Virus record (IMG/VR): IMGVR_UViG_3300015179_000037
Location: 1 to 9,586 of that record
Reading direction: 5' to 3' (one strand)
Length of the DNA stretch: 9,586 nucleotides
Source: a virus
Lineage: Duplodnaviria; Heunggongvirae; Uroviricota; Caudoviricetes
The notes below the pieces were generated by a model. That model was given only the letters and a program-made list of their open reading frames with translations. It had not been told where the DNA came from and did no database searches. Position 1 is the first letter of the stretch. Each line of letters starts with the position of its first letter. This document shows positions 1 to 9,586 of the stretch, one piece after another. The position numbers were made by a program, and so were the translations under genes.

Positions 1-207
1 ATCAATGGTTCGTTTACTTGCAAAAGCAAGATACTCAAGCCTTTATCTATGTCCAAAAAAAATTGGTAAAATCATTTAAAGAAAAAACACAACAGTTTAC
101 AGGATTATCTGTCTTGATGTTTTATTATCAGGAAGCACAGCGTCAAGTTCCCGCGCACTACGGATAATGACAAAACCCGTCCTTTCGGTACGCTCCAGAC
201 GAAAAAA

Positions 208-612
208 GTGACTGGCAGTCTCAGCGCCGATATGCTGATTGACCTGAAATTTACGCTGCGCAATAAGTACCGCAAAAAAGCTGTATGGGTGATGAACTCA
301 AATACAGCCGCCTCCGCACAAAAACTGAAAAATGCCACTGGTGATTACATCTGGCGCGATCGTTTACAGGCTGGTGATCCTGATTCTCTGCTGGGGCTTC
401 CGGTTGAATATCTGGAATTTATGCCGGACGGTGTGATTGCAGTCGGTGACTTTAAGCGCGGTTATTTCATCGTTGACCATAAAACCGGTACGCGTACCCG
501 TCCGGATTTCAGCGAGCCTGGATTCATTAACATCTATACCCAGAAATATCTGGGCGGTGGTGTGGTGGATTCGAACGCCATCAAGATTCTGGAAATTCAG
601 GCTGGCAAGTAA
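208..612 (+). CDS. HK97-family major capsid protein, C-terminal portion only; the frame is open from 118 but closed upstream, so this is probably a 5'-truncated or interrupted gene.
   Basis: The translation (AVWVMNSNTAA...LLGLPVEYLEFMPDGVIAVGDFKRGYFIVDH...YLGGGVVDSNAIKILEI) has the pattern I associate with HK97-fold capsid C-termini. Frame 1 has stops at 67-69 and 115-117 and no other frame continues into it. The ORF-track start at 208 is a GTG. Confidence 0.55.
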   Translation: MTGSLSADMLIDLKFTLRNKYRKKAVWVMNSNTAASAQKLKNATGDYIWRDRLQAGDPDSLLGLPVEYLEFMPDGVIAVGDFKRGYFIVDHKTGTRTRPDFSEPGFINIYTQKYLGGGVVDSNAIKILEIQAGK

Positions 613-620
613 TGAGCAAA

Positions 621-641
621 GGGGGCTTCGGCCTCCTTTTT
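621..641 (+). terminator. Candidate intrinsic terminator or attenuator immediately after the capsid ORF
   Basis: GGGGGC-TTCG-GCCTCC forms a 6-bp stem (one G-U pair) with a UUCG tetraloop and is followed by TTTTT. It begins 9 nt after the capsid stop. Confidence 0.5.
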
Positions 642-661
642 CAGCTTTATGGAGTACACCG

Positions 662-1222
662 ATGAAAAACACCGATTTTGAAATCCGTACATCTGAACTG
701 ACCGCCAGCGATAAAAAACTGGTGGGTTATGCCGTTCGCTGGAACAGCCTTTCAGAAATTATCTGGGACGAGTTTCGCGAACAGTTCACGCCGGGGGCTT
801 TTGCTGACTATCTGGCGGCGGGTAATGATGTGCGCTGTCTGTATGAGCATGACTATACCCAACTGCTGGGGCGTACCAAATCCGGCTCACTGGTACTGAC
901 TGAGGATAACACCGGGCTACGTTTTGAACTGACACCGCCAAATACCCAGCTTGGAAAAGATGTGCTTACGCTGGTGGAACGTGGCGATATTACAGGAATG
1001 AGCTTTGGCTTTCGCGCATTATGCGAGGAGTGGAATATCGCGCAAAAACCGTATCTGCGTACTGTAACCGCCGCAGAACTCCGTGAAATCACGATAACAT
1101 CGATGCCTGCTTATCCCGAATCCGGCGTGGAGATTGCCCACCGTTCGTTGTTTGCACAGTACCCTGAATTACGCCCGGCAGGAAATAATCGTCATCGCTG
1201 GGCTGAACTGGCGGGGTTGTGA
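662..1222 (+). CDS. Prohead maturation protease, HK97 family (peptidase S78)
   Basis: The translation MKNTDFEIRTSELTASDKKLVGYAVRWNS...LLGRTKSGSLVLTEDNTGLRFELTPPNTQLGKDVLTLVERGDITGMSFGF matches the conserved layout of HK97 prohead proteases. The ATG at 662 has GGAG upstream; the track start at 437 is an in-frame upstream extension. Confidence 0.85.
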   Translation: MKNTDFEIRTSELTASDKKLVGYAVRWNSLSEIIWDEFREQFTPGAFADYLAAGNDVRCLYEHDYTQLLGRTKSGSLVLTEDNTGLRFELTPPNTQLGKDVLTLVERGDITGMSFGFRALCEEWNIAQKPYLRTVTAAELREITITSMPAYPESGVEIAHRSLFAQYPELRPAGNNRHRWAELAGL

Positions 1223-1223
1223 T

Positions 1224-2438
1224 ATGTGGTGGCCTTTTAGTCGTAAAAAAAGCGATCTGCGTAACCTGTCCATTGATGATTTTCTGGCGTTGTCTGGTGT
1301 ACCAAATACCGGATCCGGAGAATATGTTTCTGCCGGGACGGCTGAATCATTGCCTGCTGTGATGAACGCGGTTTCTGTCATCGCTGAGGCGGTGGCCACG
1401 ATGCCGTGTTACCTGTATCTGGTACGCAATGATAAGGGCAGAGAGGCGCGGGAATGGCTGGACAGTCACCCGGTAGATATTCTGCTGAATGAGCAGCCTA
1501 ATTCGTGCCTGACACCTTACCAGTTTAAACGCACAATGATGCGTCACTGCCTGCTGAACGGTAACGCCTATGCGGTTATTGAGTGGGGGCGGGACGGGCA
1601 GCCAAAATCACTTCATCCTTATGCGCCGGGGTGTGTTGTACCGGAACGCACAGGCACACACAAATACCGCTATACCATCACCGAACCCTGTACAGGAACG
1701 GTGCGCACGTATTTACAGGAAGAAGTTCTGCATCTCCGCTATGCCTCGGATGATGGCTTTCTGGGGCGTTCCCCCGTCACGATTTGCCGTGAGGCGCTGG
1801 GGCTTGGCCTTGCTCAACAGCGCCACGGAGCCAGCATTATGAAAGATGGCATGATGGCGGCAGGGATTATCACGTCAGGTGAATGGCTGGACGGCGTGAA
1901 AGGTAAACAGGCATTAGACGCACTGGAACGCTACAAGGGGGCGAAAAATGCCGGAAAAACGCCAATCCTTGAAGGGGGCATGGATTACAGGCGGCTGGGG
2001 ATGAGTAACCAGGATGCGGAATGGCTGGCCTCCCGTCGCTTCTCCATTGAAGACATCGCCAGGATGTTCAACGTGTCGCCGATTTTTCTTCAGGAATACA
2101 GCAACAGCACCTACAGCAATTTCAGTGAGGCGAGCCGCGCATTTCTGACCATGACAATGCGCCCGTGGCTGGCGAACTTCGAACAGCAAATCAAGGCCGC
2201 TTTGCTGGTGACTTCTCCCGTACCTGGTACCCGTTATCTGGTTGAGTTTGATTCAGCCGATTTACTGCGCGCCACACCCACCGAACGTTATGCCACGTAT
2301 GAGAAAGGGATTAAGAGCGGGATCATGAATCCGAACGAAGCTCGCGAACGCGAGGGTATGCCGCCGCGTGAAGGTGGTGATGAGTTCAGCCAGGCATGGA
2401 AACAGACTGTGGAAATTAAAGGGAGAAAAGATGAGTGA
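1224..2438 (+). CDS. Phage portal protein, HK97 family
   Basis: A 404-aa product whose C-terminal half (SIEDIARMFNVSPIFL...RPWLANFEQQI...RYLVEFDSADLLRATPTERYATYEKGIKSGIMNPNEAREREGMPP) is typical of HK97-type portals. The ATG at 1224 lies 1 nt after the protease stop; the track start at 1134 overlaps the protease. Confidence 0.85.
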   Translation: MWWPFSRKKSDLRNLSIDDFLALSGVPNTGSGEYVSAGTAESLPAVMNAVSVIAEAVATMPCYLYLVRNDKGREAREWLDSHPVDILLNEQPNSCLTPYQFKRTMMRHCLLNGNAYAVIEWGRDGQPKSLHPYAPGCVVPERTGTHKYRYTITEPCTGTVRTYLQEEVLHLRYASDDGFLGRSPVTICREALGLGLAQQRHGASIMKDGMMAAGIITSGEWLDGVKGKQALDALERYKGAKNAGKTPILEGGMDYRRLGMSNQDAEWLASRRFSIEDIARMFNVSPIFLQEYSNSTYSNFSEASRAFLTMTMRPWLANFEQQIKAALLVTSPVPGTRYLVEFDSADLLRATPTERYATYEKGIKSGIMNPNEAREREGMPPREGGDEFSQAWKQTVEIKGRKDE

Positions 2439-2733
2439 AGCCAGAATTACACCTGATGAAGTCAGGGCACATCTTCGACTTGATGATGATTTATCCGGTG
2501 AAGGCGAACTTCTGAAAATGTATACCGATGCGGCGCTGGAAGCCTGCCAGAAGCATATCGGGAAACGTTTTGAAGACGGGCTGGAATTTACCCCGGCAAT
2601 GCGTGTTGGTTGCCTGATGTACATCGCTTTCCTGTACGAGAACAGGGAAGCAGTTTCACCAGTGGAGCAGTCTGAACTGCCTATGGCTATTTCTGCGCTC
2701 TGGTCGGTTTATCGTGATGTGGGGGTGTACTGA
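2431..2733 (+). CDS. Head-tail connector / DNA-packaging protein, gp6-like
   Basis: The N-terminus MSEARITPDEVRAHLRLDDDLSGEGELL...AALEACQKHIGKRF fits the gp6-like connector family. GGGAG precedes the ATG at 2431, and the gene overlaps the portal stop by 8 nt. Confidence 0.75.
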   Translation: MSEARITPDEVRAHLRLDDDLSGEGELLKMYTDAALEACQKHIGKRFEDGLEFTPAMRVGCLMYIAFLYENREAVSPVEQSELPMAISALWSVYRDVGVY

Positions 2734-3173
2734 TGCCGTGGCAACCATTAAGGCGATGCACTGAGCCGGGCTGTAATAAGCGCGTGAAGTCCGGCAAGTG
2801 TGAAGAGCACAGACGGGCTGTATGGCGTGCAGAGGATGCCAGACGGGGACACCGCCGCGCGCGCGGGTATTCCCGACAGTGGGACAAATACCGCGCCCTG
2901 TACCTGAGCAAAAACCCGTTATGCGTGCGTTGTCTGGCTAAGGGGATTTATACGCCAGCTCTTGTGGTGGATCACATCATCCCCATCAATGGCGGCGGTG
3001 ATGTTCTCTTCTGGCCTGAGTGGAACCACCAGGCATTGTGCCAGACGTGCCACAACCGTAAGACGACACGGGAAGATCCAGCCACGAAAGCGAACCGTAA
3101 GGCGGGCATGTATCGCGAGCAGGAAGAACGGGCGGCACACCGTAACGACTGGATGTATGGCGATGATGACTGA
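2733..3173 (+). CDS. HNH endonuclease, terminase-associated type
   Basis: Cys pairs (CTEPGC, CVRCL, CQTCH) plus DHIIP and NH motifs are characteristic of HNH nucleases. It sits immediately upstream of the terminase genes, as HNH does in HK97-like packaging modules. Its ATG overlaps the connector stop (TGATG). Confidence 0.85.
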   Translation: MPWQPLRRCTEPGCNKRVKSGKCEEHRRAVWRAEDARRGHRRARGYSRQWDKYRALYLSKNPLCVRCLAKGIYTPALVVDHIIPINGGGDVLFWPEWNHQALCQTCHNRKTTREDPATKANRKAGMYREQEERAAHRNDWMYGDDD

Positions 3174-3461
3174 ACAGGAGCAAACCAGGCTGATACGTGG
3201 GTTGATAAGGCAGCGTGACACATGGAAGACACAGGAGACAGGGCACAAAGCCAACAGGACAGGGCGCACAAAACGCACCACAGCGAAGTGATTAACCGAC
3301 CGTGACCGCGAGGTCATGGAATGTTTTCGCAATCGCTGGTGAGGCCGTCAGAGGGGGTGGGGGTGGTTTTCAGGACGAAACCGCCCCTGCCGGACACCGA
3401 CCGCCTCCTCAAATTTTTGTGCACGGGAATTTTTTTGAAAATAATTGGGCGAAAAAAGAAC
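3174..3461 (+). promoter_or_regulatory. Candidate cos / terminase-recognition region between HNH and TerS
   Basis: This is the only sizeable non-coding gap in the module. It contains an imperfect direct repeat (ACAGGAGACAGGGCACAAA at 3231-3249 and ACAGGACAGGGCGCACAAA at 3254-3272), a G-tract GGGGGTGGGGGTGG at 3353-3366, and T/A runs just before the TerS start. Confidence 0.35.
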
Positions 3462-3818
3462 ATGGCAAGACCACCAAAAGCCCCCGCTTACCTGGATGAA
3501 ATCGCGGTCAGGCAGTGGAAGGAAAAATCGCGCCAGCTTTCCGGACGGGAAGACCTTACTCCCGCCGACTGGAGCAATCTGGAGCTGTATTGCGTTAACT
3601 ACTCCATATACCGCAAAGCCGTCGAAGACCTTGCCACGCGCGGGTTCAGCATTGTTAACAGTCAGGGCAGCGAGAGCAGAAACCCCGCCCTGAGCGCAAA
3701 GGCTGACGCTGAAAGAATAATGATCAAAATGGCTTCTTTGCTGGGTTTTGACCCGGTAAGTCGCCGCAGAAATCCACCGGAAACAGAGGAAGAGGACGAG
3801 CTTGACCGCCTGGCATGA
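3462..3818 (+). CDS. Terminase small subunit, P27 family
   Basis: The translation MARPPKAPAYLDEIAVRQWKE...LTPADWSNLELYCVNYSIYRKAVEDL fits the P27-type TerS. I chose the internal ATG at 3462 rather than the track start at 3321, because the extension runs through the G-tract and T-run region. Confidence 0.75.
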   Translation: MARPPKAPAYLDEIAVRQWKEKSRQLSGREDLTPADWSNLELYCVNYSIYRKAVEDLATRGFSIVNSQGSESRNPALSAKADAERIMIKMASLLGFDPVSRRRNPPETEEEDELDRLA

Positions 3819-5463
3819 GTACGCAGAAGGCGTAAAAAACGGCAAAATTACGGCCTGTAAACGACTGAAACAGGCCGTTAAACGGTATTTTTCTGACCTT
3901 GAAAACCCCCTTTACACGTTCGATCCGGAGGTCGTGGAGCGGTTTATTGCCTTTTCCAGGGTGTGTCCGCACGTAAAAGGCGCAATGCGCGGTAGCCCCA
4001 TTGAGCTGGAGCCGTGGCAGCAGTTCGCCTTTGCGTGCATCCTGGGCTTTAAGGTTAAGGCCACCGGACGGCGCAAATACACCAGCGCATTCATTGAAGT
4101 GCCGCGAAAAAATGCCAAATCCACGGTCGCCGCTATCCTGGCTAACTGGTTTCTGGTTATGGAAAACGGGCAGCAGGATATTTACACCGCCGCTGTGAGT
4201 CGTGATCAGGCGCGGATCGTGTTTGATGATGCGCGTCAGATGTGCCTTTTATCCCGACCGTTACGAAAGCGGGTAAATATTCAGGCACACAAGGTGATAC
4301 ACCCGAAAACCAACAGCCTGTTAAAGCCACTGGCAGCAAAAGCGGCAACCATTGAAGGTACAAACCCGAGTCTTGCCATTGTGGATGAATATCACCTGCA
4401 CCCTGACAACGGGGTTTATTCCGCGCTTGAACTGGGAATGGGGGCGCGTCCGGAGGGGCTGTTATTTGCCATCACCACATCGGGGAGCAACGTTGTTTCA
4501 GCCTGTAAACAACACTATGACTATTGCTGCCAGATACTGGATGGTGAAGAGGTGAACGAATCCATGTTCGTGCTGATTTACGAGCTGGATGATGAAAGCG
4601 AGGTTGACGATCCGGCGATGTGGATAAAGGCGAATCCCAATATCGATGTTTCCGTCGATCGTGAAAAACTGGCCTCAACCATCCAGAAAGCGCGGGGTAT
4701 TCCGTCGCAGTGGGTGGAAATGCTCACCAAGCGATTCAATATCTGGTGTCAGGGGGCTACGCCGTGGATGGGTAACGGTGCATGGGCGGAGTGCGCCGGA
4801 ACGTTCGCAGAGGCGGATTTATACGGTCAGGAGTGCTACGCGGGGCTGGACTTATCATCAACCAGCGATATTTCCAGCGTGTGCTATGCCTTTCCGGTCG
4901 GTAAAAAGATTATGCTGGTTTCCCGTCACTATCTGCCGGAATTTCAGCTACAGAACCCCGCCAATAAAAACCGCGCCATCTATCGCCAGTGGGTAAAGGC
5001 GGGCTGGATACGCACAACACCGGGTGACTGCATTGATTATGACCGTATCCGTGATGACATCATGGCGGATGCAGAGAATTTCAATATCAGGCTGGTGGGC
5101 TTCGATACATGGAACGCCACGCACCTGAGGACGCAGCTACAGGGGGCAGGATTTGAGGTGGAGCCGTTCCCGCAAACATACCTTCGTTTCAGTCCGGCGG
5201 CGAAATCGTTCGAAGTTTTTGTTAACCGGAAGGTGATTGTGCATCGTGGCGATCCGGTGCTGGCCTGGTCAATGAGTAATGTTGTGATGCAGAGTGACGC
5301 GAACGCCAATATCAAGCCGAACAAGAAAAAATCATCCAACAAGATAGACCCGAGCGTTGCGGCGCTGATGGCGTTTGGCACATTCCAGGCAGAGCATGAG
5401 GAATTTGCATTTGATATGAGCGACAGCCACAAAGAGCGGCTTGCGGCGTTTGATGGGGTATGA
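3802..5463 (+). CDS. Terminase large subunit (ATPase/nuclease)
   Basis: A 553-aa product with a Walker-A-like VPRKNAKST, a Walker-B-like LAIVDE and a C-terminal nuclease-like region. The start appears to be TTG at 3802, overlapping the TerS stop. Confidence 0.9.
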   Translation: MTAWHEYAEGVKNGKITACKRLKQAVKRYFSDLENPLYTFDPEVVERFIAFSRVCPHVKGAMRGSPIELEPWQQFAFACILGFKVKATGRRKYTSAFIEVPRKNAKSTVAAILANWFLVMENGQQDIYTAAVSRDQARIVFDDARQMCLLSRPLRKRVNIQAHKVIHPKTNSLLKPLAAKAATIEGTNPSLAIVDEYHLHPDNGVYSALELGMGARPEGLLFAITTSGSNVVSACKQHYDYCCQILDGEEVNESMFVLIYELDDESEVDDPAMWIKANPNIDVSVDREKLASTIQKARGIPSQWVEMLTKRFNIWCQGATPWMGNGAWAECAGTFAEADLYGQECYAGLDLSSTSDISSVCYAFPVGKKIMLVSRHYLPEFQLQNPANKNRAIYRQWVKAGWIRTTPGDCIDYDRIRDDIMADAENFNIRLVGFDTWNATHLRTQLQGAGFEVEPFPQTYLRFSPAAKSFEVFVNRKVIVHRGDPVLAWSMSNVVMQSDANANIKPNKKKSSNKIDPSVAALMAFGTFQAEHEEFAFDMSDSHKERLAAFDGV

Positions 5464-5753
5464 CGAGAATGAGCGAAACCGAACTACTAAAAATAATCCG
5501 CCGCGTTACCGGAATCAGCCAGGAAGCAGGCAAACAGGAGGCCACGCAGCCGGACAGCGTGATAGCCAAAAATTACGCGCGTGTGGTGGCTGAGGTGATG
5601 CGCCGTGACGGTATCGAGCTTAACGGCGTGGATATACGCAATATACGCACCAGAGTTCTGGAGTTGTTGTCATATCGTCGCCGCGTGGAGATGTACCAGG
5701 AGAAAGAAAAAATTACTTACCACTGGAAGAAGCCGGAGCGGTTGCGGCGGTAA
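5460..5753 (+). CDS. Hypothetical 97-aa basic protein, translationally coupled to TerL; function unknown
   Basis: Its ATG overlaps the TerL stop (GTATGA). I recognise no family from the sequence (MTRMSETELLKIIRRVTGISQEAGKQ...RRRVEMYQEKEKITYHWKKPERLRR). It is the last ORF before the non-coding island end. Confidence 0.5.
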   Translation: MTRMSETELLKIIRRVTGISQEAGKQEATQPDSVIAKNYARVVAEVMRRDGIELNGVDIRNIRTRVLELLSYRRRVEMYQEKEKITYHWKKPERLRR

Positions 5754-6046
5754 CTGGTTGATATTCCCGACGTTCCAAAAATGGGTTGGCTACACCCCTC
5801 ACAACTACGACATTTTCGCAGTTTAATTAATGGTCAGTTTAATCGCTAACCCGCTGATATTTTCGGAAACCTCAATTTGAGGAGACCGGAACGTCTACAT
5901 GGCTGCATCACCATAACGATGATTTAGCCCACCAGCAACCATAACGATTTCCGTTACAGTTGATGTGCTTTTTTGCTGGTAAGGCCTAACCCGTTGATTC
6001 TTCCACAATCCCCCATTGGGGGAGGCTGGGCGGCCTGCTGTGGGCT

Positions 6047-6065
6047 TTTCCACCATTGGTGGAAA
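6047..6065. repeat. Perfect 19-bp palindrome TTTCCACCATTGGTGGAAA, sharing a CCATTGG core with the 13-bp palindrome CCCCCATTGGGGG at 6010-6022
   Basis: Read directly from the sequence; the two palindromes are about 25 bp apart edge to edge. Confidence 0.9.
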
Positions 6066-6284
6066 GGTGCAGATCTGGATCATCATTACGGTGATCAAGG
6101 GTATGTAAAACCCACCAGCCTGATTGACATTTAACCGGAAAAAAGCCAGGTAGCCCCGTTATGGGGATCCCCATATCGACATTAACGCCCCTCATGAATT
6201 GGCGTGCTTCTCCCTGGAAAGATGACCCGCCTGTATATTTCTTGTGTCTATTTGTTCCACGTTGTTTCATACAGTGCACCGAAC

Positions 6285-6308
6285 GGTGTAGTTAATGGTG
6301 TAGTTAAT
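6285..6308. repeat. Perfect tandem duplication, 2 x 12 bp (GGTGTAGTTAAT)
   Basis: Read directly from the sequence; it lies close to the inferred island/chromosome junction. Confidence 0.9.
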
Positions 6309-6352
6309 TTGCGATTTTTGGCACTTCTTGCAGTGTATATTGTTTAATTAAA

Positions 6353-6391
6353 TCAATGCGTTATTGAAAATAAGTTATAGATATATCCCAT
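6353..6391 (-). pseudogene. allE: Probable orphaned 5' end of allE (ylbA): start codon and RBS retained after allC, gene body replaced by the insertion
   Basis: On the minus strand the allC stop is followed by AGGAG and, 10 nt later, ATG GGA TAT, which then runs into a stop after 12 codons (MGYIYNLFSITH*). From memory, E. coli AllE begins MGY and starts a few bp after allC. Confidence 0.4.
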
Positions 6392-6401
6392 TTATGACTC
6401 C

Positions 6402-7637
6402 TTATTTCTGCCAGGCAAGTTGATAAAGCATGAGTGCCAACGTTTTGACCCCTTCGGCAAGGTCGGTAATATTGGTGCGTTCCGCCGGGTTATGGCTGAT
6501 CCCATTGATGCTGGGAATGAAAATCATGCAGGTTGGTACGCGAGGCGCGAAAATTTGCGCGTCGTGCCCGGCACCACTGTGCATCACCCGGTAATTCAGT
6601 TTTTCGCTTTCACACAATTCTGTCAGGGTGGCGACCAGGTCCTTATTCATCGGCACGGGTTCTTCGTCCATCCATAAATCGATATCAATACCAATGTCCA
6701 TTTCATCGCAAATCGCCCGCATGTCGTTTTCTAACTGCTGAGTGAAATCGCGCAGCACGGCGGCGTCGGTATGACGACAATCAATGGTGAATGTGGTTTT
6801 ACCCGGCACCACATTCACCGTATTCGGGCGCGGCTCCACCTTACCAAAGGTCAGCACCAGCGGGTCGCCCATCTTTTTCGCTTTTTCGATCGACTGATGG
6901 CAAATGCGACTGAAAGCGTAAACTGTATCACGACGGTAACCCATCGGCGTGGTGCCTGCATGGTTTGATTCGCCGTTCAGCGTCACCGTATAGCGACGTT
7001 GCCCGACAATTGCATTCACCACGCCAATTGATTGCCCATTACTTTCCAGCACACAGCCCTGTTCGATATGCAGTTCGACAAAGGCTTTAATATCCTGACG
7101 CGGAGTTAGCGGGGCGTCCGGCAGAGTAAATCCGCAAGCCTTCATCGCATCGACAAAACTATTTCCTTTGGCATCACAGATATTCCGCACGTCGTCAGGA
7201 TTCGCCAGCCCAAAGATATTTTTACTGCCCCAGAAAACATACGGGAAGCGGCTGCCTTCTTCTTCCGCCATCGCCACCACTTCAACCGTACGTAACGGCG
7301 CGCCGTATTGCCTTTTCAACCAGTCAATTGCCAGCCACGCCGCCAGCGCGCCGAATTGCCCGTCGAGGTTACCGCCGTTAACCACGGTATCGATATGCGA
7401 ACCGCTCAGAACCACTTCCTGTGGATATTCGGTGCCACTCAGGCGACCGTATAAATTCCCCACTTCATCGAAACGTGTTTCCAGCCCGCTTGCTGCCATT
7501 CTTTTTTTAAATTGCTGCTGGGTTTCCAGCCATTCCGGCGAATAAAGTAAACGGGTCATCCCACCCGTTGGGTCAGCGCCAAAAGAGGAAAGCCAGGGCA
7601 GCGTTTCTTCTATGGCTTGACGGAAATGTGTAATCAT
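6402..7637 (-). CDS. allC: Allantoate amidohydrolase
   Basis: The translation MITHFRQAIEETLPWLSSFGADP...LMLYQLAWQK matches E. coli AllC as I recall it across its length. The start is the ATG at 7637 with an AGGA RBS; the track start at 7655 is an upstream extension. Confidence 0.93.
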   Translation of the reverse strand: MITHFRQAIEETLPWLSSFGADPTGGMTRLLYSPEWLETQQQFKKRMAASGLETRFDEVGNLYGRLSGTEYPQEVVLSGSHIDTVVNGGNLDGQFGALAAWLAIDWLKRQYGAPLRTVEVVAMAEEEGSRFPYVFWGSKNIFGLANPDDVRNICDAKGNSFVDAMKACGFTLPDAPLTPRQDIKAFVELHIEQGCVLESNGQSIGVVNAIVGQRRYTVTLNGESNHAGTTPMGYRRDTVYAFSRICHQSIEKAKKMGDPLVLTFGKVEPRPNTVNVVPGKTTFTIDCRHTDAAVLRDFTQQLENDMRAICDEMDIGIDIDLWMDEEPVPMNKDLVATLTELCESEKLNYRVMHSGAGHDAQIFAPRVPTCMIFIPSINGISHNPAERTNITDLAEGVKTLALMLYQLAWQK

Positions 7638-7658
7638 AAGAAAGTCCTGTCTCAATAA

Positions 7659-8708
7659 TTATTGCGCAAAGGGATTTTTCGTTTCGTATGACGTGTTATA
7701 AAGCGCGTCGGAAATTAAATACTGGTAAATATCATCAACAATTTCGATGCCTTCGACGGCGGCTTTGCGTTGTTTCATATCCTGATCCTGTCCGGGATAA
7801 TAAACCTGGTTAAAACCGGGCGCGGGGGTTATGGCATTTAATTCGCGCATGGTCTGGCTAAGATGTTGACGGAATAGTTCGCTGGAGGAGAAAAAGTTCG
7901 GATTAATAACGATATGTAATTGCCCCAAATTACGCCCGGCGTGTAAATCGTCATACATCGAACTAACCTGTCGCCCGAACGGTAAGCCGAGTAAGACGCC
8001 TGAGAGGACGTCAATCATCATCATCAGGCCATACCCTTTCGGTCCGGCGGCAGGGAGCAGGGCGTTAACTGCAAATGGATCGGTTGTTGGTGCTCCGTTT
8101 TTATCGACCGCCCAGGTATCCGGGATAGACATATTACGCGAGCGGGCGTCGAGCACTTTTCCCCATGCCTGTACGGTAGTCGCCATATCAAAGGTAAGGA
8201 TCTCGTCGCCTTCTCCCGGCGCGGCAAAGGCCAGTGGGTTAGTACCGTAGTAAATTTCCGCGCCGCCAAACGGCACCACCATTGGATCGGACTGGCACAT
8301 CGAAATGCCAATTAATCCGGCGCGGGCTGCCTGCTGCACAAAATAAGAGATTGCGCCGCTGTGACCCATCCGGCTGATACCGACCACCGCAACGCCATTT
8401 TGCTGGGCGGTTTTGATGGCATGTTCCATACCCATTTTCGCCGCGACCTGTCCGGCGGCATTGTCGGCATGTAAAATTGCCGAGCACGGCCCGGTTTCCT
8501 CAAGACGAAACTCCGGTTCGCGGTTGGTGCCGCCTTTTGAAATGCGTTCTGCGTAGTATTCAACACGCACCGCGCCATGAGAGTGGATCCCTCTGGCATC
8601 GGCGTAAACCAATACTTCAGCCACGGTTGCAGCGTGCTCACGTTTTAACCCAGCCTGGCAGAGTTTATTCTCAATTAGCTGGTGGAGTGTTTCCCGACTG
8701 ATTTTCAT
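7659..8708 (-). CDS. allD: Ureidoglycolate dehydrogenase
   Basis: The 349-aa translation MKISRETLHQLIENKLCQAGLKREHAATVAEVLVYADARGIHSHGAVRVEYY... matches E. coli AllD. An AAGGAAG RBS precedes it, and it lies 21 bp upstream of allC in the same orientation. Confidence 0.93.
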   Translation of the reverse strand: MKISRETLHQLIENKLCQAGLKREHAATVAEVLVYADARGIHSHGAVRVEYYAERISKGGTNREPEFRLEETGPCSAILHADNAAGQVAAKMGMEHAIKTAQQNGVAVVGISRMGHSGAISYFVQQAARAGLIGISMCQSDPMVVPFGGAEIYYGTNPLAFAAPGEGDEILTFDMATTVQAWGKVLDARSRNMSIPDTWAVDKNGAPTTDPFAVNALLPAAGPKGYGLMMMIDVLSGVLLGLPFGRQVSSMYDDLHAGRNLGQLHIVINPNFFSSSELFRQHLSQTMRELNAITPAPGFNQVYYPGQDQDMKQRKAAVEGIEIVDDIYQYLISDALYNTSYETKNPFAQ

Positions 8709-9024
8709 CTGTCTTCCTTTTTAACGACGGTGTGAAGCATGACTGCAATTAACATACAGGGAAAATATCTGGATTATGTGATCCAGACAGGCAAAAAAAT
8801 ATAGTTAGAATTTATTTGATAATCCGCTCACTTTTAACCTGATTTTTAAAACAACCACGCTTATTAAAAAATAATGAGTAATAGCCTGGCGGTTATTTGA
8901 ATTCTTTTGTTAATAATTCCTGTGTGATATTCATCACCTTATTTACTCGTTGTCATCGATACCGTAATCGCCACATTAACACTGCTCGTGCAATTGCCAT
9001 GAGTGCAATTTTTAAGGAGTTGTT
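8709..9024. promoter_or_regulatory. Divergent allD / fdrA intergenic control region
   Basis: An AT-rich 316-bp gap between divergently oriented genes. It contains an inverted repeat TCTGGAT-N6-ATCCAGA at 8768-8787 and a GTGCAATT direct repeat pair (8990-8997 and 9003-9010) just upstream of the fdrA RBS. Confidence 0.5.
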
Positions 9025-9586
9025 ATGATCCACGCCTTTATTAAAAAAGGGTGTTTTCAGGATTCGGTCAGTTTAATGATTATTTCACGAAAACTCAGCG
9101 AATCAGAAAATGTTGATGATGTTTCCGTAATGATGGGTACGCCCGCCAATAAAGCGTTATTAGATACCACAGGTTTCTGGCATGACGATTTTAATAACGC
9201 CACGCCGAACGATATTTGCGTGGCAATTCGTAGCGAAGCGGCGGATGCGGGGATCGCGCAGGCGATTATGCAGCAGCTTGAAGAGGCGCTAAAACAACTG
9301 GCGCAGGGGTCAGGCAGCAGCCAGGCGTTGACGCAGGTGCGTCGCTGGGACAGTGCCTGTCAGAAATTACCCGATGCCAATCTGGCGCTGATTTCAGTGG
9401 CTGGCGAGTATGCGGCGGAGCTGGCAAACCAGGCGCTGGATCGCAACCTCAACGTGATGATGTTCTCCGATAACGTCACGCTGGAAGATGAAATCCAACT
9501 TAAAACCCGCGCGCGGGAAAAAGGCTTGCTGGTGATGGGGCCGGACTGCGGTACGTCGATGATTGCCGGCAGATCGGAAGAGCGTC
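9025..9586 (+). CDS. fdrA: FdrA, 5' partial; runs off the window, and the final 16 nt are probably adapter rather than gene
   Basis: AAGGAG RBS then ATG at 9025; the translation MIHAFIKKGCFQDSVSLMIISRKLSESENVDDVSVMMGTPANKALLDTTGFWHDDF... matches E. coli FdrA as I recall it. Confidence 0.85.
   Translation, partial: MIHAFIKKGCFQDSVSLMIISRKLSESENVDDVSVMMGTPANKALLDTTGFWHDDFNNATPNDICVAIRSEAADAGIAQAIMQQLEEALKQLAQGSGSSQALTQVRRWDSACQKLPDANLALISVAGEYAAELANQALDRNLNVMMFSDNVTLEDEIQLKTRAREKGLLVMGPDCGTSMIAGRSEER
9571..9586. other. Probable Illumina adapter remnant (AGATCGGAAGAGCGTC) at the 3' end of the contig/window
   Basis: An exact 16-nt match to the start of the standard Illumina TruSeq adapter AGATCGGAAGAGCGTCGTGTAGGG..., located exactly at the window end. 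Confidence 0.8.

What the first reader, a model, noticed from the sequence alone, without database searches (positions are those of the whole stretch)
9571..9586. Illumina adapter sequence at the window end: untrimmed contig terminus
The final 16 nt, AGATCGGAAGAGCGTC, exactly match the start of the common Illumina adapter, and fdrA coding sequence stops making sense there. This suggests the contig ends here with adapter contamination. It also lowers confidence in assembly quality elsewhere, including the composition break at the left edge.
Basis: seen in the sequence. Interest (0 to 1): 0.45.

Follow-up and report, generated by a model that had tools for sequence, protein, structure and literature searches.

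The report
Untrimmed Illumina adapter, chimeric contig ends
The last 16 bases of this contig are leftover Illumina sequencing adapter and the first 147 bases are a stray piece of Enterococcus chromosome, so both ends are laboratory or assembly artefacts around an otherwise correct stretch of E. coli DNA.

Summary
Window 9571-9586 is exactly AGATCGGAAGAGCGTC. That is the 12-nt universal Illumina TruSeq adapter core plus the first 4 nt (CGTC) of the Read-2-specific branch: 16/16 against the Read-2 adapter, 13/16 against Read-1.

fdrA starts at 9025 and equals reference FdrA for residues 1-182. The window then reads RSEER where references read TPLAF. None of about 5,400 complete E. coli genomes continues past 9571.

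Bases 1-147 (32% GC) match no E. coli genome. They are 100% identical to an internal piece of a holB (DNA polymerase III delta') gene of the Enterococcus faecium/lactis group. They join the middle of an E. coli phage-satellite capsid gene out of frame, with no shared bases at the junction.

The interior is sound. Bases 148-9571 align as one collinear piece (99.1%) to a complete E. coli genome: the right part of a tail-less, cf-PICI-like satellite, then allC, allD and the 5' part of fdrA.

This is a well-known artefact. The same adapter sits at the extremities of at least 120 IMG/VR contigs. There is no biological feature here, so interest is low beyond trimming both ends.

The parts
9571..9586 (+). 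First 16 nt of the Illumina TruSeq-type adapter, Read-2 branch (AGATCGGAAGAG + CGTC). This is non-biological sequence at the 3' extremity.
   Evidence: 16/16 to the Read-2 adapter, 13/16 to Read-1. (adapter parts as given in PMC11536531). (absent at the homologous place in every E. coli genome searched).
9025..9570 (+). Genuine 5' part of fdrA, codons 1-182, cut off by the adapter.
   Evidence: 100% nucleotide identity to many E. coli genomes over window 9000-9571. The protein is identical to reference FdrA residues 1-182. Annotated as fdrA in the references.
1..147 (+). Foreign segment: an internal fragment of an Enterococcus (faecium/lactis group) holB gene (DNA polymerase III delta'), read in window frame 3, 32% GC. 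It forms a chimeric contig end.
   Evidence: No match in 5,426 E. coli genomes in distant mode. 100% over 147 nt to OR848382.1 and OR846934.1, where it lies inside a 312-aa ORF with Pfam PF13177. That protein is 97% identical to Enterococcus lactis, and the 147 nt are 96.6% identical at DNA level. GC values.
147..148 (.). Blunt chimeric junction with no shared bases. Enterococcus identity ends at 147 and E. coli identity begins at 148.
   Evidence: Four-way alignment and pairwise alignment. The junction falls inside holB on one side and inside the capsid gene on the other, in different frames (frame 3 against frame 1).
148..612 (+). C-terminal 154 codons of the satellite major capsid gene, truncated at its 5' side by the chimeric junction.
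   Evidence: Pfam PF05065 Phage_capsid, E = 2e-30. Corresponds to the AST20 major capsid CDS.
148..6373 (+). Right-hand part of a tail-less, cf-PICI-like phage satellite: capsid, prohead protease, portal, connector, HNH, TerS, TerL and a small ORF. It is genuine E. coli DNA.
   Evidence: Single collinear alignment 148-9571 to AST20 at 99.08%. Annotation. The element boundary lies at 6373/6374, by comparison with the element-free genome CP025913.
6374..9024 (-). E. coli core chromosome: the first 18 nt of allE, allC (6402-7637 by the annotated length; the mechanical ORF runs to 7655), allD (7659-8708), and the allD-fdrA intergenic region.
   Evidence: 99.8% identity over window 6374-9061 to CP025913. 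Annotations. ORFs.

Best explanation
The 16 terminal bases are untrimmed Illumina TruSeq-type adapter, not genome. Shown: the sequence is the adapter, it is in forward orientation at the 3' extremity, and fdrA homology stops exactly there. Inferred: a library fragment ended at fdrA base 9570, and a read longer than the remaining insert ran through the A-tail into the Read-2 adapter branch. Because reads were not adapter-trimmed and local coverage was low, that read supplied the last bases of the contig, and the assembler could not extend further. The other end has a second, independent artefact. Its 147 bases come from the chromosome of an Enterococcus in the same sample or sequencing run. They were most likely joined to an E. 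coli fragment as a chimeric library molecule (blunt fragment-to-fragment ligation), which extended the contig end. Between the two artefacts, 148-9570 is a correct assembly of an E. coli locus: the right part of a satellite, then allC, allD and the start of fdrA.
For: - **Adapter identity:** exact 16-mer at 9571-9586, matching the Read-2 adapter 16/16. The adapter parts agree with PMC11536531.
- **Reference comparison:** reference fdrA reads ACACCGCTGGC at that place. None of 5,406 matching E. coli genomes extends beyond 9571. FdrA is identical for residues 1-182 and then diverges.
- **Geometry:** the same position and orientation is seen in 117 of 123 occurrences of the 33-nt adapter in IMG/VR contigs, at a median of 15 nt from the end. 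The literature reports the same.
- **Left end:** no E. coli match. It is 100% identical to the interior of holB in two wastewater SPAdes contigs. The closest species is Enterococcus lactis, at 97% aa and 96.6% nt. The junction is blunt and out of frame inside two genes. GC is 0.32 against 0.515.
- **Interior:** one collinear alignment at 99.08% to AST20, and 99.8% to CP025913 from 6374 onward. There is no Nextera sequence and no other adapter match of 10 nt or more inside.
Against: - Only 16 nt of adapter are visible, so the Read-2 assignment rests on 3 discriminating bases (GTC against ACA).
- No reads, coverage values or source record were available. The steps about read-through, low coverage and ligation chimera are therefore inferences.
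- I could not prove that the window end is the contig end.
- Assemblers usually clip short tips. Retention of a 16-nt adapter tip and a 147-nt foreign tip implies there was no competing genomic path at either end. That is plausible at low coverage but was not shown.
Confidence: 0.96

Rival explanations
1. The 16-mer is genuine genomic sequence: a variant fdrA allele, or the start of an insertion or rearrangement in fdrA that happens to begin like the adapter.
For: Nothing positive. The window ends at 9586, so what follows cannot be seen.
Against: The chance of the 16-mer at this place is 2.3e-10. None of 5,406 E. coli genomes carries it at the homologous place. None of the first 44 loci fetched contains even the 13-mer. 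The break coincides with the extremity of the sequence, in the orientation typical of adapter read-through.
Confidence: 0.002
2. The adapter is real contamination but is not at a contig terminus. The window would be a slice of a longer contig in which the adapter bridges two unrelated fragments, and the window happens to be cut inside it.
For: Internal adapter occurrences do exist: 6 of 123 in IMG/VR, including an adapter-dimer-like pair in L090. The source contig could not be found, so its true length is unknown.
Against: A window boundary falling by chance within a 33-nt adapter is unlikely, and the odd window length (9586) suggests a whole contig. 117 of 123 occurrences elsewhere are terminal.
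Confidence: 0.03
3. The left-end chimera was made in silico, by a mis-join in the assembler's graph or by scaffolding or binning, rather than being present in a physical library molecule.
For: Mixed-sample, low-coverage SPAdes assemblies contain the same Enterococcus sequence. Assemblers can mis-join contigs.
Against: A de Bruijn mis-join needs a shared k-mer. Here the two sources share no bases at the junction, and neither parent sequence resembles the other around it. There is no run of N that would indicate scaffolding.
Confidence: 0.12
4. The Enterococcus-E. coli junction is biological: a real recombinant in which Enterococcus holB DNA was inserted into the satellite's capsid gene, for example captured in a transducing or satellite particle.
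For: The E. coli side is a mobile phage satellite, and such elements do move between hosts (abstract of 10.1101/2025.02.11.637232).
Against: The junction destroys both genes, is out of frame, and has no microhomology or recombination-site features. The foreign piece is a housekeeping-gene fragment that is 100% identical to environmental Enterococcus contigs. The contig ends 147 nt later. The other end of the same contig carries a proven library artefact. No such junction was found in 5,426 E. coli genomes or in JGI metagenomes.
Confidence: 0.01

Closest known systems
Illumina TruSeq adapter read-through contamination at contig ends, as surveyed in PMC11536531 (BMC Genomics 2024, 'Removal of sequencing adapter contamination improves microbial genome databases')
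   Same: It has the same universal core AGATCGGAAGAG followed by the start of the reverse-read-specific CGTCGTGTAGGG... sequence. It is in forward orientation at the 3' extremity, and homology to real genomes stops exactly at the adapter. The same geometry is seen in IMG/VR contigs.
   Different: Only 16 nt are retained here rather than the full 33 nt or more. Whether the adapter itself caused the contig break, as that paper proposes, cannot be tested without the reads.
Chimeric contigs and cross-organism contamination in assemblies (the class targeted by tools such as GUNC, cited within PMC11536531)
   Same: Two segments have their best matches in different phyla (Bacillota Enterococcus against Pseudomonadota E. 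coli), with an abrupt composition change and both genes broken at the join.
   Different: The foreign part is only a 147-nt tip at the contig end, not a large mis-binned block. Gene-content-based chimera detectors would probably miss it.
[quoted passage not shown] This applies to the genuine interior of the window, not to the finding itself.
   Same: In the complete copy in E. coli AST20, the element runs integrase, regulators, primase, then capsid, protease, portal, connector, HNH, TerS and TerL, with no tail genes. It is inserted between allE and allC.
   Different: Membership rests on annotation and gene order only. No induction, packaging or tail-hijacking evidence was examined, and the window holds only the right-hand part of the element.

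Membership tests
Illumina TruSeq-type adapter contamination | Exact match to the universal adapter core AGATCGGAAGAG(C) | tested here: met
   9571-9583 match exactly and are the only site in the window on either strand. The core sequence is as given in PMC11536531.
Illumina TruSeq-type adapter contamination | The core is followed by a read-specific branch (Read 1 CACACGTCTG..., Read 2 CGTCGTGTAGG...) | tested here: met
   The 4 nt available after the 12-mer core are CGTC, which is the Read-2 branch. The match is 16/16 to Read-2 and 13/16 to Read-1. The test is limited by the sequence ending at 9586.
Illumina TruSeq-type adapter contamination | Homology to authentic genomes stops exactly where the adapter starts | tested here: met
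   Alignments to more than 5,300 genomes end at 9571. No genome covers the junction. The reference continues ACACCGCTGG.
Illumina TruSeq-type adapter contamination | Forward orientation at the 3' extremity of the contig (reverse complement at the 5' extremity) | tested here: inconclusive
   The adapter is in forward orientation at the last 16 bases of the window. This matches 117 of 123 occurrences in IMG/VR. The source contig was not found, so it is only inferred that the window end is the contig end.
Illumina TruSeq-type adapter contamination | Raw reads show adapter read-through at this position, with no reads continuing into fdrA codon 183 and beyond | not testable with these tools
   No reads or coverage data are available.
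Inter-organism chimeric contig | Adjacent segments have their best matches in unrelated taxa | tested here: met
   Bases 1-147 have no E. coli match, are 100% identical to contigs carrying an Enterococcus-type holB, and are 96.6% identical to E. lactis. Bases 148-9571 are 99.1% identical to E. coli AST20.
Inter-organism chimeric contig | The junction interrupts otherwise continuous parental sequences | tested here: met
   Both parents continue differently past the junction. It lies inside holB and inside the capsid gene, in different frames and with no shared bases.
Inter-organism chimeric contig | The junction is supported by few or single reads, or by discordant pairs | not testable with these tools
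   No reads are available.
cf-PICI (interior of the window; side observation) | An integrase-bearing island encoding its own capsid, protease, portal, connector and TerS/TerL, but no tail genes | tested here: met
   Annotation of the complete copy in AST20, Pfam families on called genes in eight other loci, and Phage_capsid on the window's fragment.
cf-PICI (interior of the window; side observation) | Helper-phage induction and formation of small capsids joined to helper tails | not tested
   This needs an experiment.

The most novel reading that the evidence does not exclude
The most novel reading not strictly excluded concerns the 147|148 junction. It could be a physical recombinant molecule from nature: Enterococcus chromosomal DNA joined to an E. 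coli cf-PICI-like satellite, for example inside a particle from a mixed community. That would be a snapshot of cross-phylum DNA joining involving a phage satellite. The adapter itself has no novel reading.
Probability: 0.01. Interest if true: 0.5.

Novelty: not a real feature. Interest (0 to 1): 0.05.

Why it matters
The value is practical only. Bases 9571-9586 and 1-147 should be trimmed before any annotation or comparison. Left in, they would create a false FdrA C-terminus (…MIAGRSEER) and a false 54-aa ORF fusing Enterococcus holB sequence to out-of-frame capsid-gene codons, and they would suggest a false E. coli-Enterococcus link. The two artefacts show that the reads were not adapter-trimmed. 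They also suggest a mixed or multiplexed sample that contained Enterococcus. The interior (148-9570) can be trusted. Separately, two GenBank records named 'Listeria phage' turn out to be Enterococcus chromosomal contigs, which is a caution for anyone using phage-labelled collections.

Tried and rejected
- **Wrong frame:** my first translation started at 9026 and gave nonsense. It was redone from the ATG at 9025.
- **GTDB 35-mer scan:** an exact 35-mer from the left segment found nothing in the GTDB species representatives. The nearest representative, E. lactis, differs at 5 of the 147 positions. The protein-based locus search then worked.
- **Plasmid origin of the left segment:** no match.
- **Listeria origin, as the GenBank names suggest:** rejected, because all the closest relatives of the holB protein are Enterococcus.
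- **Other adapter chemistries:** Nextera was not found, even with 3 mismatches. No small-RNA adapter match of 9 nt or more was found, and no other TruSeq match of 10 nt or more lies inside the window. The three 9-mer hits, at 2670 and at 2802-2803 (the latter two overlapping), are chance matches.
- **Search for the source contig:** none of these found it: the right junction in IMG/VR, the left junction in JGI metagenomes, the whole window in INPHARED phages, and the chimeric edge ORF in the gene-position index.
- **Pfam on FdrA residues 1-182:** no family, so uninformative.

Full report
**1. The observation**

The last 16 bases of the window, 9571-9586, read AGATCGGAAGAGCGTC. The 13-mer AGATCGGAAGAGC occurs nowhere else in the window on either strand, even allowing two mismatches. 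The 16-mer matches the TruSeq Read-2 trimming sequence AGATCGGAAGAGCGTCGTGTAGGGAAAGAGTGT at 16 of 16 positions, and the Read-1 sequence at only 13 of 16. I supplied the adapter strings from my own knowledge. They agree with PMC11536531, which gives AGATCGGAAGAG as the universal part, and CACACGTCTGAACTCCAGTCA and CGTCGTGTAGGGAAAGAGTGT as the forward- and reverse-specific continuations. The chance of this 16-mer at one fixed place is 2.3e-10, and 4.5e-6 copies are expected anywhere in the window.

**2.

The last 587 bases match fdrA in 5,409 of 5,426 complete E. coli genomes. The best hits are 100% identical but stop at query position 572, which is window 9571. The reference continues ...ATTGCCGGC ACACCGCTGGCTTTTGC, whereas the window has ...ATTGCCGGC AGATCGGAAGAGCGTC.

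A dedicated search with the last 40 bases found 5,406 genomes matching only the first 25 bases. None covered the junction.

fdrA starts at 9025, and 9571 opens codon 183. The encoded protein equals reference FdrA for residues 1-182 and then reads RSEER instead of TPLAF. The A at 9571 is shared with the reference by coincidence. Only one A precedes GATCGG, and TruSeq inserts are A-tailed (established chemistry, my own knowledge), so the genomic insert most likely ended at 9570.

**3. The left edge**

It is real. GC is 0.32 for bases 1-147 and 0.515 for 148-9570 (profile). The best E. coli genomes match the window only from 148, and bases 1-160 find nothing in any E. coli genome even with the sensitive mode.

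The 147 bases are 100% identical to the interior of two GenBank records, OR848382.1 and OR846934.1. Both are 'UNVERIFIED_ORG' SPAdes contigs at about 4-5x coverage from wastewater, named 'Listeria phage LM 4-14-1' and 'LM 4-11-1'. In those records the segment lies inside a 312-aa ORF that follows a thymidylate-kinase-like ORF (identified from its sequence motifs, my own knowledge) and a small PII-like gene. The ORF carries Pfam DNA_pol3_delta2 at E = 9e-64, so it is holB.

Its closest relatives among 185,579 species-representative genomes are all Enterococcus. E. lactis is the best at 97% amino-acid identity, and other Enterococcus species lie at 71-88%. The 147 nt are 96.6% identical to E. 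lactis at DNA level. The segment is therefore chromosomal DNA of the E. faecium/lactis group. It is neither Listeria nor phage.

The junction is blunt. Enterococcus identity ends at 147 and E. coli identity begins at 148, with no shared base. It lies inside holB (window frame 3) and inside the satellite's major capsid gene (frame 1).

**4. The interior**

Bases 148-9571 align to E. coli AST20 as one collinear piece: 99.08% identity, 81 mismatches and 4 small gaps. The annotated genes are:

- major capsid (C-terminal part), HK97-type prohead protease, portal, head-tail connector, HNH, TerS, TerL and a small ORF;
- then allC, allD and fdrA.

All the corresponding ORFs are intact in the window. 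In AST20 the element begins with an integrase and lies between allE and allC, which are 10 bp apart in the element-free genome CP025913. The core chromosome resumes at window 6374, at 99.8% identity to CP025913. There is no Nextera sequence and no other adapter match of 10 nt or more inside the window. The two artefacts are therefore confined to the extremities.

**5. How it arose**

Shown:
- the adapter's identity, orientation and position;
- the break in homology at both ends;
- the foreign origin of bases 1-147;
- the blunt junction.

Inferred:
- At the right end, a read ran off a short insert ending at 9570 into the Read-2 adapter. With untrimmed reads and no competing genomic path (low coverage), it supplied the contig's last bases.
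- At the left end, a chimeric library molecule extended the contig. It was most likely made by fragment-to-fragment ligation. A graph mis-join would need a shared k-mer, and PCR template switching usually needs homology, and there is neither here.
- The sample, or the sequencing run, contained both E. coli and Enterococcus. That fits a faecal or wastewater origin, like the two records that share the 147 nt.

**6. How ordinary this is**

PMC11536531 reports that adapters in public microbial assemblies concentrate at contig ends in forward orientation, and at contig beginnings as the reverse complement. Of 123 occurrences, 117 have that geometry, at a median of 15 nt from the end. The window's tail fits the same pattern.

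**7. What could not be settled**

The source record was not found in INPHARED, IMG/VR, JGI metagenomes or the gene-position index. It is therefore an inference that the window end is the contig end, based on the odd window length and the typical geometry. Without reads, I cannot distinguish a physical chimera from an in-silico one.

**8. Verdict**

This is not a biological feature. Trim 1-147 and 9571-9586; the interior is reliable. Interest is low.

Noticed in passing
window 148-6373 (complete copy: L043 about 5970-19820): This is the right-hand part of a tail-less phage satellite with cf-PICI-like architecture: capsid, prohead protease, portal, connector, HNH, TerS and TerL. In E. coli AST20 the whole element starts with an integrase and is inserted between allE and allC, which are 10 bp apart in element-free genomes. 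Only about 10 of 5,426 complete E. coli genomes carry it at this site. An identical TerL occurs in elements at other chromosomal sites, for example next to phoQ or next to thiM/thiD-like kinase genes, sometimes beside full prophages.
   Followed up: partly
L003 (OR848382.1) 4603-6594; L004 (OR846934.1): Two GenBank records named 'Listeria phage LM 4-14-1' and 'LM 4-11-1' (UNVERIFIED_ORG, wastewater SPAdes contigs) carry a thymidylate-kinase-like ORF, a PII-like gene and holB. The holB protein is 97% identical to Enterococcus lactis. They are Enterococcus chromosomal contigs, not Listeria phage.
   Followed up: partly
phage-collection hits H33 (OR850947.1) and H34 (OR845470.1), matching window 8018-9567 and 8613-9567: Records named 'Salmonella phage S.Kent 1-2-1' and 'Escherichia phage ECO95 1-6-1' match the allD-fdrA region at about 80-81% identity. 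They too appear to hold enterobacterial chromosomal DNA under phage names.
   Followed up: no
L045-L164 (IMG/VR contigs): The full 33-nt TruSeq Read-2 adapter is present in at least 120 IMG/VR viral contigs. 117 of 123 occurrences lie at contig extremities in the expected orientation. A few are internal, including a head-to-head adapter pair in L090 at 1142-1215.
   Followed up: partly
window 5525-5538: A small cluster of indels relative to E. coli AST20 (+A, -A, +AGG; net +3 nt, so in frame) lies inside the small ORF that follows TerL (5469-5753). A separate 1-nt indel lies in the non-coding stretch at 6138.
   Followed up: no
window 6274-6309 and L043 5913-5948: A 36-nt imperfect direct repeat (34/36 identical; GTGCAACGATCGGTGTAGTTAATGGTGTAGTTAATT in the AST20 copy) occurs near both ends of the satellite: just upstream of the integrase in AST20, and about 65 nt inside the right boundary in the window. 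It may be an att-arm or recombinase-binding repeat.
   Followed up: no
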